A stretch of 64,000 nt of DNA from an uncultured cyanobacterium (GCA_963744145.1 CAVUSO010000001.1:4384001-4448000), one strand, 5' to 3'; positions 16,345 to 21,866 are shown, counted from the stretch's first letter. Program-made: numbers and translations. The notes: generated by a model from the letters alone, not told the origin.

Positions 16345-18174
16345 ATGACTCGCAAAGCCTTAGTCATCGGGATTAAAAATTATCCCAACTTCAGGGGAAG
16401 AGGACAAAGACAGGATCTGGAAAACCATCCTCTGGATGCAAAAGCGATCGCCGATTTTTTGAGAAAGTTCGGACGCTTTGAGGTGGAAGTTCTCCCCAAA
16501 ACTGAGATTGATGGAGCTTATCAGGTTGATGAAAAAGGTATTGTAACAGCAAAGCAGCTAAAGAATGCCATTTACGATTTGTTTGTTGATCCCAAAGATG
16601 GTAAGATCCCCCAGACTGCATTACTATTTTTTGCTGGTCACGGTTTAGCGATCGAGGAATATCGCAAAACGATCGGCTATCTCTGTACAAGTGACACAAA
16701 TAAAGACCAAGAAAAATGGGGTGTAGAGTTTCGCTGGTTAGCTGAACAACTTGGAAACAGTCAAGTATCAGAGCAAATTATCTGGTTAGATTGTTGTCAC
16801 AGTGGACACTTGACTCAGCAAATTTTTGAGCAGACAAATCCTGGGAATCGAGATGATATAAAGCGCTCAATTATTGCGTCTTGTAGGGATTCAGAAATAT
16901 CCCTAGGTGTAGATGGTCACGGGGTGCTGACACATCTTTTGAAAAAAGTGCTTCACCCTGAACAGTATGATGTTAGTTTTGCTATTAACAGTTCAGAAAT
17001 TCAAGCAGCAGTAGAGCGAGAATTTCATGCTCATCCCAAATTTGGGACTTATCCTCAGCGTCCGTTATTTTTCCATTGTGGTAGACCAATTCATTTTTGG
17101 GAAGGTAGAGGGAAGCAAAGCGATCGCAAGTTTGAAATTTCTTCCGCAAATCAACCTTTTTGGTTAGCAGATAGCTTGCAGAATGATTCCCCATCTCTTA
17201 ATAATTCCGAGTTATCTTGGTTTTGTTCTCTTCGAGAAGATCCAAATGTTTATGATCGGATTAGAAAAGCATACCAAGACTCTTTACCTCCCGATGCAGG
17301 ATTGTGGGATTTAGAAGGAAATAATCTTCACCAGATTTTACAAGAGCTTAAAGTATTTAGAAGATTATTTGAATTTTTTAACCGTCTTAGTAAAGATGAA
17401 AATTTGCCTGAAGAAATTCGCGATCGCTTCAAAAACTGGGCTGAAAGGTTAGAGCCAAAAAAGTATCCAGATCCGATTAATTCTAGCGATCGCGAACTTG
17501 AATCCTATTTAATTGCTAAAATTGAACCTGATGAGGGATCTGACAAATTTTTAGTAAATGCTTGGTTAATTATGGATAACTCAATCCCAGCAAATAACCT
17601 ATTTAGATTTGAATCTCTGATTGATGGGAATGAACATCAACAGGGAATAGTTTGTCAATTTAATCAAATCCCAGAAAAATTAAATGAATTTCTAAAAAAA
17701 TCTCGTAGAAATCTCCGAGGGAGAAAATATAACTTAACTATTGAGGTGTTTGTACCCAGTGATTTAATGTGTACAGAAGTCGATCGCTGGAAAATTATTG
17801 ACCCAATCGATGATGAAGCTACTTTGGGTATTAGGTATCCGATTCGATTGCGATCGGTAGAACGGTTACAGATTGATTATTTGGATGCGTATTTGTCTGA
17901 TTGGTATAAACAGTGGGAGCGGGTAAAAAATATCTTCCATAAGGAACCAACTCCAGAATTATTTGAAACTATTGAGAAAATGGAAAATTTTAATTGGAAA
18001 ATGTTGAAAAATAGTTTAATGGAAAAAATTGGTCTTAAGCTAACTTGCGCTCATCCTCAAGGGAAAAGAAAGGAGTTATTTAAAGCTATTTTAACAGCAA
18101 CCACTCCCATTGCTATTTGGACAAGATGTGATATTCCTAATGTAGATCAAGTAGCTGATACCAATTCACCATGA
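16345..18174 (+). pseudogene. Caspase-like peptidase fused to vWA-MoxR-associated protein (VMAP-C); C-terminus removed at 18158
   Basis: ALLFFAGHG / WLDCCHSG His-Cys dyad; VMAP-C-like LTIEVFVP..L...VDRW, LGIRYPIRLRS.ER, TPIAIWTR; terminal LWxDP-type motif missing. Confidence 0.8.
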
Positions 18175-18456
18175 AGATACATTGATGTATATTGATCTGT
18201 GGGTGAGGGTGGGTTTTGATGATTAGTAGGTAAATGTCAAACATCTCGGTGAACCCGGGCGGGTTTTTCTAATTAATTGGTAAATTTCAAAAATCTGGGC
18301 GAACCCGCCCCTACTACAGAAATCCGCAAATTGAGGATAAAATTGGTAGGGGCAGGTTCACCAGTCAATTTTGCCACCAACAGATCACCATTATAAACCT
18401 GCCCTGACCTAACAGATCAACCTCAGATTAAGTGCAATTTCATAGTTAATTGGTAT
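18158..18456. mobile_element. ~300-bp non-autonomous element (MITE-like) carrying GTAG-type REP palindromes
   Basis: Imperfect TIRs ATACCAATTCACCATGAA / TTCATAGTTAATTGGTAT; internal GAACCCGCCCCTAC and GTAGGGGCAGGTTC; coding sequence broken on both sides. Confidence 0.7.
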
Positions 18457-19470
18457 GAACCCCATGATGATATTAATCGTCTTCCTGATCCCCCCAGTTA
18501 GCGTAAATTTACGGGTGCAGATGAGGAAATTATTACAGAAATTGAACAACGCTGGGAAAAGTTTGGTGATAGTTTAGATCACAATAAAAGGGATGAGGAA
18601 CGGGGTAAAAGTTTCCGTATCCATAGTGATCAGGATAATGACCGAAATAGTGTGATTAATATGGTCAATGCTGCTTTATATTTAAGACGACCTTTATTAG
18701 TTACAGGAAAACCAGGGACAGGTAAAACCTCTTTAGCTTATGCGATCGCTTATGAATTAAAATTAGGGACTGTATTACCTTGGTATATTACAGCCCGTTC
18801 AACTTTACAAGAGGGATTATATCGCTATGATGCGATCGCGCGTCTGCAAGATGTGCAAATGGGTGATAAAAGTAAAGATATCGGTCGCTATATTACATTA
18901 GGTTCACTAGGAACAGCATTACTCCCTTCCCGTCGTCCTCGTGTATTATTGATTGATGAAGTAGACAAAAGTGATATTAATTTACCCAATGATTTACTCA
19001 ACTTATTTGAGGAGGGAGAATTTAAAATCCCAGAATTAGTCCGGATTTCTAAAGACGTGAATCAGGTAGAAGTTCGTACTTATGATGGCATAGATGTCCC
19101 CATAAAAGACGGTAAAGTGCGTTGTCTGAATTTTCCATTTATTATTTTGACAAGTAACGGTGAACGAGATTTTCCGCCAGCATTTCTCAGACGTTGTTTA
19201 AGGTTAAATATGCCTTATAATCCTGATGCAACAGCGTTACTGGAAATAGTAAAAGCCCATTTAGAGAAAGATAAATTAACTCAAGATCAGCCAAAAATCG
19301 AGAATTTAATCAATAAGTTTAAAGAATTACGAGAAGGAGGAGATATTGCCACAGATCAACTACTGAATGCAATTTATATGGTGACTCGTGAGTTTAAACC
19401 TGAACCAGCAGAAGAAAAAGACCTAATTGAAGTGCTAATGAAATACTTAAGCAGTGCGGAGGATCGATGA
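18457..19470 (+). pseudogene. MoxR-family AAA+ ATPase; start lost and in-frame TAG at 18499, core ORF 18652-19470 intact
   Basis: [55 protein letters not shown]; upstream in-frame EPHDDINRLPDPPS*RKF where homologues have PPxWRxF. Confidence 0.85.
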
Positions 19471-21866
19471 TTAATCGCTTAATTAATGCGTTGAGCAAGG
19501 AAGTGGAATTGTCAGCTAAAGAAATTGCTGCAAATTCGTTGGGGTATCGGTGCAACTGCTAAGAATCAATCTCCCCGTAGTCCAAAAGAATTAATTGACC
19601 CTAGTGGTCGGCATTTGGTATTGGTAGTAAGTGATTGTGTATCATCTTACTGGCGGTAATGGAAAGGTTACATCTGTATTAGAAATCTGGGCAAAACAAG
19701 GGTCAATAGCAATTATCCAGATGCTACCTAAATGGATGTGGAAAAGAACCGCTTTAGGGAGAGCATCTGAAGTGCGGTTGCGAGGACTGACTCCAGGGGT
19801 ATTCAATCAGAATTTAATCGCTAAAGAAGTATCTTTGTGGGATGAACTGGATGAGGAAAGAGGGGTTAAAGTTCCTGTATTTACCTTAGAAGCGGATCAT
19901 GCTGTAACTTGGGCACTTATGTTATCAGGAAAGGGGAGTATTTGGGTATCGGGATATGTGTTTAAATTAGATATAGTTCCTGTTAAAAAGGAAAGTAGCT
20001 TATTGAATTTTGCTGGTGATTTAAGTGCAGAGCATCGCGTGCAAGCATTTCGGGTAACAGCTTCACCAATGGCGCGGAAATTAGCAGGTTTATTAGCTTC
20101 TGCACCTGTAATAACTCTACCAATTGTTCGATTGATTCAGGAAGCACTGTTAAAAGATTCTCTACAAGTTAATGTAGCTGAGGTCTTTTTAGGAGGATTA
20201 TTAAAACCGTTATCTGAAATTAATGCAGAAACGAATCCTGATTATGTTCAATATGATTTTATGGATGGAGTACGTGATTTATTGCTTGATTCTGTGCCTT
20301 CAAATTATACTTTGACTGTCATTAATGAGGTATCAAAATATGTAGCGAAAAAGATGGAGTTATCCTTAGATAATTTTGCGGCTGTTTTGAAGAATGAGCA
20401 ACTCATTAGGAATAGTGAGATTGTTGAAGATGTTGGATATTTTGCGACAGTTACAGCTCAAATTTTGAGACGTTTAGGTGGGGAGTATGTAAAGGTTGCT
20501 GAAGAATTGGAGAGTTATAATCAACCAAATTATAAAATAAATGTTCAAACCACAGTTAAGAAAAATTATAATCTTTTATGGGAACATAAAAACACTAAAA
20601 TTTATAGTTTTTGCACAGATCAACCTTGGGTTTTACCTTTTGATACTTTAGTAATTCCTATGGGATGTAGCATATTCTTACATAACAAATTGCTATCTGG
20701 AGGAGGATTTAGTAAGGGATTTCAACATTTTTTAGGTAAAAATATAGTTCTTTTTGATCAATCAGTTGCTATGGCTTTAGGAGAGGATAAAAATAATCAA
20801 AAACAAGTTAGTCCTAATAAACCTTTACTTGTCCCTCTAGCTTCTGAAATTAATCATCAACTTTCTTTAACCAATGGTTATAAAATTAACCATTTTGTCA
20901 TTATTACAACAGTAGAATCTCCAGAACCTAGTGTATTAAATGCCGTTGATGCTATTAATTCTATCATTGCTCTAGCAGTAAAACAAGGATTAAAGTACAT
21001 AATTGTTCCTTTATTAGGAACTGGAAATATTGGATTATCTGTTGATAAAGTAGCGACTGAAATGTTATCAGCAATTAATAAAAGTTTAAAAAATTTATCA
21101 TCTAATTCTATAGAAGAAATTATTTTTGTAGATAAAAGCGAAAATACCATTACAAAAATTAATCAAATTGCACAGAGTTTATTTACTGAAGAAGATACAG
21201 ATCAAGTTCAGCAACCTTCAGAACTATTCCGAGCGAATCCTGAACCTCGCATTCCAGTTGTTCTAATCCTTGATACATCAGGTTCAATGTCGGGTCAACC
21301 TATTAATGAGTTAAATCAAGGATTAGTTACTTTTCAGCAAGAACTGAACAAAGATGATTCGGGTTCTATGCGTGTAGAAGTTGCGATTATTACCTTTAAC
21401 ACTTCTGTAACGATTGTTCAAGATTTTGTGAGAGTTGACCAATTTAAGCCCCCTTGTCTCTCAGCATCAGGAGTAACGGCAATGGGTGAAGCCATTGAAA
21501 CAGCGATCTCCCTGCTAGAATATCGGAAAGAGACTTATAAAAATAATGGTGTTCGTTATTATCGTCCTTGGGTATTGCTAATTACAGATGGCTCACCCAC
21601 TGACAATTGGCAAAGTGCTGCTAAAAAGATTCGACAATTTGCGGTCCAATCAAAAAATCAACTTTTTTGCAGTGGGTGTTCAGGACGCGGATATTGGTAT
21701 TCTCTCACAGATTGCTCCTACCGATACGCCGCCTCTTAAGTTAAGAGGATTGTCGTTTATTGAGTTATTTCAGTGGTTATCATCCTCAATAATATCCGGA
21801 GTATATAGGAGTACACCCGTTACTCAAGTTACTCTTCCTCCAATAGGATGGGCAACTGATTTTTAA
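19467..21866 (+). pseudogene. SAV_2336-type vWA protein fused to Macro-like and TerY-type vWA domains; internal deletion near 19530, frameshifts near 19657 and 21640
   Basis: ATGA overlap with moxR; LVLVVSDC, QMLPKWMWKRTAL, LPIVRLIQ, AEVFLGGLL, YDFMDGVRDLL; Macro GGG...VPLLGTG; vWA LDTSGSMSG, YYRPWVLLITDGSPTD continuing in another frame as FFAVGV...FQWLSSS. Confidence 0.8.

What the first reader, a model, noticed from the sequence alone, without database searches (positions are those of the whole stretch)
16345..21866. Caspase-VMAP / MoxR / vWA ternary conflict system with an unusual Macro + TerY-vWA effector tail
Seen: three coupled genes, caspase+VMAP-C, MoxR AAA+, and a SAV_2336-type vWA protein whose C-terminus holds a Macro-like domain (about 20600-21140) and a complete TerY-type vWA with DxSxS MIDAS (about 21240-21866). 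Known: vWA-MoxR-VMAP ternary systems are predicted conflict systems of multicellular bacteria with variable C-terminal effectors, and TerY vWAs normally sit in TerY-phosphatase-kinase triads. Inference: this variant links proteolysis, ADP-ribose sensing or removal and TerY signalling in one system. I do not recall this double-vWA architecture being described. Best candidate for an uncharacterised system here, although this copy is broken.
Basis: partly seen in the sequence, partly recalled or inferred. Interest (0 to 1): 0.75.

Follow-up and report, generated by a model that had tools for sequence, protein, structure and literature searches.

The report
Broken immune operon, captured TerY tail
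This is a broken copy of a known, predicted bacterial immune operon (VMAP-MoxR-vWA) whose swappable tail carries a likely non-catalytic ADP-ribose-binding fold and a domain likely captured from a different defence module (TerY-P), a tail that is intact in a few other cyanobacterial proteins.

Summary
The domains are real: C14 caspase + VMAP-M1 + VMAP-C, MoxR, SAV_2336 vWA, a Macro fold (Z about 20) and a TerY/YegL vWA with full MIDAS. The copy is a pseudogene: a 297-bp MITE at a VMAP/MoxR deletion, a TAG in MoxR, and an out-of-frame deletion in the core vWA. Two further frameshifts are probably assembly errors. The system is the published VMAP ternary system; caspase, Macro and GUN4 are already listed parts. 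Macro + TerY is not a one-off: five other proteins have both, always with GUN4 between; the direct join was seen only here. The parts are not a coupled circuit: Macro, TerY and caspase are each swapped independently in relatives, and the Macro lacks the hydrolase Asn. What appears undescribed is the TerY tail: nine fused copies, nearest to free TerY of cyanobacterial TerY-PP2C-kinase triads, without those partners alongside, used by both VMAP and iSTAND systems. A complex prediction weakly supports binding to a triad PP2C (0.53, best control 0.01). The key paper's source-data file could not be read. The scan saw VMAP systems before in other cyanobacteria. Verdict: new variant of a known kind, moderate interest.

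The parts
16345..18174 (+). VMAP gene: C14 caspase (His99/Cys151 motifs intact) + VMAP-M1 + VMAP-C; the last ~50 model positions of VMAP-C are missing and the stop codon lies inside the MITE
   Evidence: Pfam; motifs; the caspase belongs to a family of 13 tblastn matches in this genome, closest 65-67% identical and fused to other domains
18159..18455 (.). 297-bp MITE with terminal inverted repeats TACCAATT/AATTGGTA and a TGA duplication on both sides, sitting at the junction of a deletion that removed the VMAP end and the first ~11 codons of MoxR
   Evidence: 17 full-length copies at 98-100% identity in the genome; 11 of 13 exact-end copies have matching TNA duplications; left junction lies on one X1 contig with 29 bases inside the element
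18458..19470 (+). MoxR AAA+ ATPase remnant; start lost; TAG at 18499-18501 replaces the Trp of the PsWR motif; Walker A/B intact
   Evidence: 86% protein identity to intact L008 MoxR, TGG there; the TAG is not covered by run X1
19467..20500 (+). SAV_2336-type core vWA: 21-codon stub, out-of-frame deletion of about 510-570 bp at ~19530 (removes the DESIS MIDAS strand), then the C-terminal half; one extra base at 19655 is probably an assembly error
   Evidence: X1 contig 18554-19702 spans the deletion junction with 0 substitutions and lacks base 19655
20561..21160 (+). Macro-fold domain of a small clade (73 representatives at E<=0.001), macroH2A-like; DxLVIPxG replaces the DAVVHPTN/DVVVNASN segment, LLGTG loop kept
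21161..21226 (+). Linker: C-terminal Macro helix plus the first codons of the GUN4 leader (VQQPS here, VQLLS in L008), joined in frame to TerY with no GUN4 domain
   Evidence: DNA alignment to L008; motif survey; X1 contig 21170-21465 matches without differences
21227..21866 (+). TerY/YegL-type vWA, complete, MIDAS DxSxS-T-D intact; one extra base at 21645 is probably an assembly error
   Evidence: 66-74% identical to other fused tails, 68% to the nearest free TerY of TerY-PP2C-kinase triads

Best explanation
This is a pseudogenised VMAP-MoxR-vWA operon, a predicted anti-invader system, whose vWA gene ends in exchangeable cassettes: a Macro fold that likely binds rather than removes ADP-ribose-type groups, and a TerY vWA likely captured from a TerY-phosphatase-kinase triad that would act as a binder or decoy for that triad's partners. 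Shown: the three genes, their order, the lesions, the Macro fold, the intact TerY MIDAS, the absence of PP2C/kinase neighbours, and independent swapping of each cassette among relatives. From the published model (PMC7159879, prediction only): VMAP senses an invader, the MoxR ring remodels the core vWA, and a peptidase releases the tail. Inferred here: tail cassettes are joined by recombination at a short GUN4-leader sequence; the released Macro and TerY work as non-enzymatic baits, the TerY one by occupying a triad PP2C or a viral protein aimed at TerY-P. This copy cannot work: MoxR lacks its start, the core vWA lacks its MIDAS strand and VMAP-C is cut.
For: Domains and order. Lesions. Intact relatives with SAV_2336-Macro-GUN4(1-2)-TerY: P0002/3, P0004, P0021, P0022, and N-terminally partial P0005. 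Slot swapping: EVE for Macro in P0092, GTPase for Macro in P0009, GTPase for TerY after the same LDNLDTDV linker in L014, TPR-rich tail on a 90% identical core in L064. Core and Macro trees disagree: window+P0006/7/8 are one side of a branch for Macro (99/98) and rejected for the core (p-AU 0.006). GUN4-leader motif precedes TerY in 7 of 9 fused tails. Macro: top structural matches include macroH2A and PARP14; the VIP segment aligns with macroH2A VHP and the following Asn position is Gly 43, Ser 7, Asn 5 of 60; Asn plus a glycine-rich loop is the hydrolase hallmark (bioRxiv 10.64898/2026.08.12.744356, passages). TerY: 28 of 28 closest free TerY loci have a PP2C within 1.5 kb, none of the 3 fused loci seen does; dN/dS 0.38-0.55; MIDAS kept in 9 of 9. 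Complex prediction of a tail TerY (P0010) with the PP2C domain of a triad from the same genome: weak support, score 0.53, best of 3 controls 0.01, contacts agree >=84%, partner pLDDT >=85; the mark was reached by 116 of 157 solved and 2 of 215 mismatched pairs, but at <=0.60 by only 18 solved and both mismatches. Inactive enzyme copies as decoys are a stated theme of these systems.
Against: No experiment exists for any VMAP system in what I read; the activation model is a prediction. ADP-ribose binding was not tested; the window copy itself has GGG in loop 1 although only one Gly is conserved in the clade, and hydrolases (O. iheyensis macrodomain, PARP9 MD1) tie with readers in Z. The complex score is weak and its alignment was mostly free TerYs, so it may show only the family interface. 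This genome has no TerY-PP2C triad that I could find, so an in-trans host partner is missing here. One origin of the fused TerYs is not shown (support 87/37 and 70/89). dN/dS of Macro and TerY (0.36-0.62) is well above that of MoxR and core (0.13-0.19). The group tested was chosen after seeing identities.
Confidence: 0.62

Rival explanations
1. One reading: a dedicated variant that wires caspase proteolysis, ADP-ribose sensing or removal and TerY signalling into one conserved circuit.
For: All three parts are present at this locus; Macro and TerY co-occur in 6 of 8 VMAP-type TerY-tail proteins; one Macro-bearing relative has a caspase-fold CHAT peptidase on VMAP (L014).
Against: This caspase was not found in 14 distinct relative VMAP loci (three are cut by contig ends, eight hold only 1.5 kb of flank, and a divergent caspase-like ORF in L051 was missed by the query); their VMAP N-termini are EAD1, EAD10 or CHAT where scanned. 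Only 2 of 41 Macro homologues at E<=1e-10 carry TerY (50% clusters hide some). No PP2C or kinase nearby.
Confidence: 0.1
2. The tail cassettes are passengers: recombination at the GUN4 leader piles up domains, the TerY has no partner or role, and the direct Macro-TerY join is a loop-out of GUN4 during decay.
For: The direct join was found in this copy only; the locus has at least three real lesions; tail dN/dS is relaxed; the tail is rare: fused copies of this TerY lineage among the listed top matches in 3 of 401 genomes against 63 of 301 with a SAV_2336 gene; a second VMAP system in this genome also has a 5'-truncated VMAP.
Against: MIDAS kept in 9 of 9 tails, dN/dS below 1 in all comparisons; the same TerY lineage is kept in frame in two different ternary systems (81% identical, L047); P0009 also has TerY without a GUN4 domain.
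Confidence: 0.18
3. The tail TerY is a second adaptor for the operon's own MoxR ring, giving it a second Mg2+-dependent peptide-capture site, with no link to TerY-P partners.
For: MoxR ATPases work through vWA partners that capture peptides at MIDAS (PMC7159879 passages); the tail MIDAS is intact and occurs in two MoxR systems.
Against: Free TerYs sit with PP2C and kinase, not MoxR, in 28 of 28 loci for PP2C; the tail lacks the helical extensions described for MoxR-partner vWAs; MoxR-TerY binding was not tested.
Confidence: 0.1

Closest known systems
VMAP-type vWA-MoxR ternary conflict systems (Kaur, Burroughs, Iyer, Aravind 2020, PMC7159879)
   Same: Gene order VMAP-MoxR-vWA; VMAP-M1/VMAP-C; caspase at the VMAP N-terminus; PsWR motif remnant in MoxR; variable multi-domain vWA tail; Macro and GUN4 named as effectors (sections 9, 10, 19 read).
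   Different: This copy is broken; no alpha/beta-hydrolase gene flanks the caspase-VMAP; a second, TerY-type vWA as effector is not named in the main text (0 hits for TerY or YegL). The paper counts 86 tail domains, and its source-data PDF could not be read, so it may be listed there.
TerY-P triads (TerY vWA + PP2C + Ser/Thr kinase; Anantharaman 2012, not held; described second-hand in PMC11090510 passages)
   Same: TerY-type vWA with full MIDAS, 56-68% identical to free cyanobacterial triad TerYs.
   Different: Fused as a C-terminal cassette of a ternary-system effector; no PP2C or kinase beside it. In CoCoNuT systems the whole triad is recruited as separate genes; here only the vWA.
macroH2A-like / PARP14-type Macro domains (ADP-ribose readers)
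   Same: Fold (Z 18-20, rmsd 2.3-2.4), HP/IP motif after the D of strand 3, GTG/GSG diphosphate loop.
   Different: 14-19% identity; conserved Asn mostly replaced; an invariant PW (58-59 of 60) stands where canonical Macros have the GDIT motif (register inferred, motif recalled); ligand unknown.
iSTAND-type MoxR-vWA ternary systems (PMC7159879 section 20; PMC8195603 passages)
   Same: One carries an 81% identical TerY tail (L047/P0010) and another a Macro of this clade split by EAD1 (L010).
   Different: Third component is iSTAND, and the effector is a separate gene; the window locus is VMAP-type.

Membership tests
VMAP ternary system | Gene order VMAP, MoxR, vWA on one strand | tested here: met
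   16345, 18458, 19467, all +
VMAP ternary system | Tripartite VMAP: N-terminal peptidase/EAD, VMAP-M, VMAP-C | tested here: met
   C14 + VMAP-M1 + VMAP-C over cut-offs; VMAP-C truncated at model position 176 of 226
VMAP ternary system | MoxR with N-terminal WxhapG and PsWRxa motifs | tested here: inconclusive
   PsWR remnant present with Trp to TAG; the first motif lies in the deleted part; both present in the 86% identical L008 MoxR
VMAP ternary system | Core vWA with helical extensions (SAV_2336 type) and MIDAS | tested here: met
   NF041121 236.5 bits over cut-off 200; N-terminal half with DESIS deleted here, intact in P0004/P0022
VMAP ternary system | C-terminal effectors that differ between close relatives | tested here: met
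   Macro/EVE/GTPase, GUN4 x0-2, TerY/GTPase/sigma-like/FGS tails on cores 68-83% identical
VMAP ternary system, caspase subtype | Neighbouring alpha/beta-hydrolase gene | tested here: not met
   Flanking ORFs are a KGGVGR ATPase and a thiaminase upstream and a small ORF with no Pfam match downstream; further small downstream ORFs were not scanned
VMAP ternary system | Multicellular host | not tested
   Host unnamed; named carriers of relatives are Planktothrix mougeotii and Pseudanabaena sp., filamentous by my own knowledge
TerY-P triad | TerY vWA with DxSxS-T-D MIDAS | tested here: met
TerY-P triad | Adjacent PP2C and Ser/Thr kinase genes | tested here: not met
   No tblastn match at E<=1e-6 in the window, L008, L047 or the G000 genome; 28 of 28 free TerY loci have PP2C; 8 weak PP2C_2 matches in G000, none beside a TerY
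Macro superfamily | Macro alpha/beta/alpha fold | tested here: met
   Z 20.0, rmsd 2.3, 175 aligned; Foldseek E 6e-10
MacroD-type ADP-ribosyl hydrolases | Conserved Asn before a glycine-rich catalytic loop | tested here: not met
   Asn position is Gly in this copy and Asn in 5 of 60 homologues; one Gly of the loop conserved (58 of 60) (criterion). The alignment of this segment to solved Macros is low-scoring
macroH2A-like readers | ADP-ribose binding without hydrolysis | not testable with these tools
   Needs ITC and de-MARylation assays

The most novel reading that the evidence does not exclude
Cyanobacterial MoxR-vWA ternary systems have captured the TerY subunit of the TerY-P kinase/phosphatase defence switch as a releasable effector: on activation it would bind the cell's triad PP2C in trans, or the phage protein that targets TerY-P, so that one immune system trips or guards another. 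The cassette moves between VMAP and iSTAND systems through a GUN4-leader recombination joint and is refreshed by gene conversion from free triad genes.
Probability: 0.2. Interest if true: 0.7.

Novelty: new variant of a known kind. Interest (0 to 1): 0.36.

Why it matters
The system class and its Macro and caspase parts are published predictions, and this copy is dead, so the locus itself is not a test object. The value is in the intact relatives it leads to (P0004 from Planktothrix mougeotii, P0021, P0022, P0010): they give a concrete, small test of the open question of how non-enzymatic 'effectors' of ternary systems act, because the tail TerY has an obvious candidate partner (triad PP2C) and the Macro clade has a clear predicted loss of catalysis. 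The shared GUN4-leader joint also suggests how these tails are shuffled.

Tried and rejected
Search for a direct Macro-TerY fusion elsewhere: none in three word-index searches (length limits 386-1229, 1230-3510, 631-2009 aa; one search scored only the top 7995 candidates), the 1.84-billion representative search, one genome-contig scan (1 locus), one metagenome scan (4 loci) or genome samples (2 of 401 and 5 of 401 genomes hold the Macro, own included). Not proof of absence. Macro against 50,697 phage records: no match. PADLOC: no model for the TerY tail or the 702-aa ORF; caspase, AAA and GUN4-region matches are generic. Sequencing runs: no RNA holder listed; the TAG and the right MITE junction are not covered by run X1. 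Assembly quality control: 0 of 16 matched genes outside ternary loci showed a frame split or stop, which rejects 'the whole locus is an assembly artefact' but also makes two errors in 2.4 kb less expected; I put the error reading at about 75%. Gene conversion between tail and free TerY was seen only as a sliding-window patch (91% to L062 against 79-84% to L047), not formally tested. Literature: 7 searches returned no listing describing a TerY effector in ternary systems; I saw listings and abstract starts only, except for PMC7159879 (sections 9, 10, 19, 20, first part of 35, passages, two supplements searched), and passages of PMC8195603, PMC11090510, PMC9503650, 10.64898/2026.08.12.744356 and 10.64898/2026.10.19.760177. 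Anantharaman 2012 is not held; Figure 1-source data 1 of PMC7159879 is too large to read and may bear on the novelty claim. Genomic context of P0002/3, P0004, P0005, P0009, P0021, P0092 could not be fetched; in L008 the VMAP gene appears split, so no fully intact three-gene locus with a TerY tail was seen.
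Full report
Observation. The window holds three co-oriented genes. 16345-18174 encodes a C14 caspase (aa 2-207, FAGHG and LDCCHS motifs intact), VMAP-M1 and VMAP-C (model positions 2-176 of 226). A MoxR AAA+ follows with intact Walker motifs, then a vWA gene that matches the SAV_2336 model over positions 242-474 of 475, a Macro-like stretch at 20561-21160 and a TerY/YegL-type vWA at 21227-21866.

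State of this copy. Five breaks were mapped against relatives. (i) A 297-bp MITE at 18159-18455, with 17 full-length copies of 98-100% identity in the genome and a TGA duplication, sits where the end of VMAP-C and the first ~11 codons of MoxR have been lost. (ii) TAG at 18499-18501 replaces the Trp of the MoxR PsWR motif (TGG in L008). (iii) An out-of-frame deletion of about 510-570 bp at ~19530 removes the N-terminal half of the core vWA with its DESIS motif. (iv, v) Single extra bases at 19655 and 21645. A public DNA run, X1, matches the unique parts of the locus with no substitutions in its listed long pieces; one contig spans the vWA deletion junction, and single contigs (depth 5.6 and 4.1) lack exactly bases 19655 and 21645, the same places where L008 has gaps. 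Without them the frame is open for 780 codons from 19522 to 21866. These two are probably assembly errors (about 75%; X1 may be the source sample, and 0 of 16 unrelated genes showed frame splits). The TAG is not covered. The locus is a pseudogene on the other lesions; low dN/dS for MoxR and core (0.13-0.19) suggests that the decay is recent.

Is the tail a one-off? No for co-occurrence, yes so far for the direct join. Eight distinct VMAP-type vWA proteins carry this TerY: the window's, P0002/3, P0004 (Planktothrix mougeotii), P0005, P0009, P0021, P0022 and P0092. Six also have the Macro; the five others all have one or two GUN4 domains in between. P0092 has EVE and P0009 a GTPase in the Macro slot. 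A ninth protein, P0010, is the effector of an iSTAND-type system and carries an 81% identical TerY. Conversely the Macro mostly occurs without TerY: of 41 representatives at E<=1e-10, 27 have the SAV_2336 core and 2 have TerY; other tails are FGS, WD40, TIR, GTPase, sigma-like or CHAT, and more distant members are fused to KAP NTPases (12 of 48 scanned). In samples of the order, 63 of 301 genomes have a SAV_2336 gene over the cut-off and 5 of 401 this Macro.

Cassette structure. A GUN4-leader motif (VxLxSExxIDxTQL) stands just before TerY in 7 of 9 fused tails, and free TerYs lack it. L014 has a GTPase after the same LDNLDTDV linker that precedes TerY in P0004. The window keeps the first codons of the leader (VQQPS for VQLLS) and then enters TerY, so its direct join is either a loop-out of GUN4 between two leader copies or an early state; I cannot tell which. 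The Macro groups with P0006/7/8 (99/98) while the core tree rejects that group (p-AU 0.006) (group chosen after seeing identities). The caspase belongs to a 13-match family of this genome, whose closest members are fused to other domains; it was not found in 14 distinct relative VMAP loci (limits stated under rivals), where scanned N-termini are EAD1, EAD10 or CHAT. The three parts therefore assort independently and do not form a conserved circuit.

The Macro. The model (5-sequence alignment, pLDDT 83) matches Macro domains at Z about 20, rmsd 2.3 (macroH2A, PARP14; hydrolases such as the O. iheyensis domain and PARP9 MD1 tie within 1 Z). In a 60-sequence alignment the LLGTG loop is kept (G153 and G155 in 59 of 60) while the segment that aligns, at low score, with macroH2A DAVVHPTN and PARP14 DVVVNASN reads DxLVIPxG, with Asn in 5 of 60. 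An Asn plus a glycine-rich loop underlies hydrolysis (bioRxiv 10.64898/2026.08.12.744356, passages). I infer a reader or decoy, not an eraser; binding is untested.

The TerY. MIDAS is complete in 9 of 9 tails. The nearest free relatives are TerY genes of TerY-PP2C-kinase triads: 28 of 28 such loci have a PP2C within 1.5 kb, whereas the window, L008 and L047 have none, and no triad was found in this genome. The closest free copies (68% to the window) are in triads of the same genus as L008. The nine tails form one side of a branch with weak support (87/37; 70/89). A complex prediction of the P0010 tail with the PP2C domain of a triad from the same genome gave weak support: 0.53 against 0.01 for the best of 3 controls, contact agreement at least 84%, partner pLDDT at least 85; the mark was reached by 116 of 157 solved and 2 of 215 mismatched pairs, but at 0.60 or under by only 18 solved pairs and both mismatches. 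The alignment was mostly free TerYs, so this may show only the family interface.

Mechanism. Following the published model (PMC7159879, sections 9, 10, 19, 35), VMAP would sense an invader, MoxR would remodel the core vWA and a peptidase would release a polyvalent tail of mostly non-enzymatic binders. The Macro and TerY fit that theme as baits; the TerY would occupy a triad PP2C or a viral inhibitor of TerY-P. All functional steps are inferred.

Comparison and novelty. The paper already names caspase-VMAP, Macro and GUN4. TerY has 0 hits in its main text and in PMC8195603, and 7 literature searches listed nothing on a TerY effector, but the source-data file with its 86 tail domains could not be read. 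It is not a TerY-P triad (partners not met) and not a MacroD hydrolase (Asn not met). Verdict: a dead member of a known predicted system, pointing to a small, apparently undescribed tail variant. Interest 0.36.

Noticed in passing
window 14976-16139 (-): KGGVGR-motif AAA ATPase (NF047398, 159.6 bits) divergent from the VMAP gene; its 3' end runs into a ~125-bp repeat (14941-15065) found at 5 other places in the genome, so it is probably truncated; a 134-bp exact copy of its 5' part lies at G000 C1:7143757-7143890.
   Followed up: partly
G000 C1:4855767-4859968 (outside the window): A second VMAP-MoxR-vWA(GUN4) system in the same genome; MoxR and vWA are open, but the VMAP frame is only 304 codons (VMAP-C positions 51-226) and seems to lack its 5' part; an IS-like transposase follows the vWA gene.
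   Followed up: partly
window 13240-14631 (-): Thiaminase-I-like protein with a C-terminal MVL mannan-binding lectin domain (Pfam PF22141, PF12151).
   Followed up: no
L046:6801-10415: 1204-aa Band7/SPFH + TerY vWA + kinase fusion in another cyanobacterium; its TerY falls outside the tail group, so it is an independent fusion.
   Followed up: partly
L010:4010-5719: iSTAND-system effector in which a Macro of this clade is split into two parts by an inserted EAD1 domain.
   Followed up: no
L008:12020-12661 against L062:5152-5811: A ~120-200-bp patch of the tail TerY is 91% identical to a free triad TerY but 79-84% to the sister tail in L047, a possible gene-conversion tract.
   Followed up: partly
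proteins P0043, P0052, P0059, P0062, P0064-P0069, P0074, P0087: The same degenerate Macro clade is fused N-terminally to KAP-family NTPases, some with EAD7 or peptidoglycan-binding domains: a second conflict-type context.
   Followed up: no
L008 and L014, between VMAP and MoxR: A pair of small opposite-strand genes (123 and 127 aa) is inserted between VMAP and MoxR in two related loci, and one of them in L064.
   Followed up: no
window 21900-22310: A multi-copy REP/MITE-like repeat region with short tandem units follows the vWA gene (635 blastn matches for 21861-22360 in the genome).
   Followed up: no
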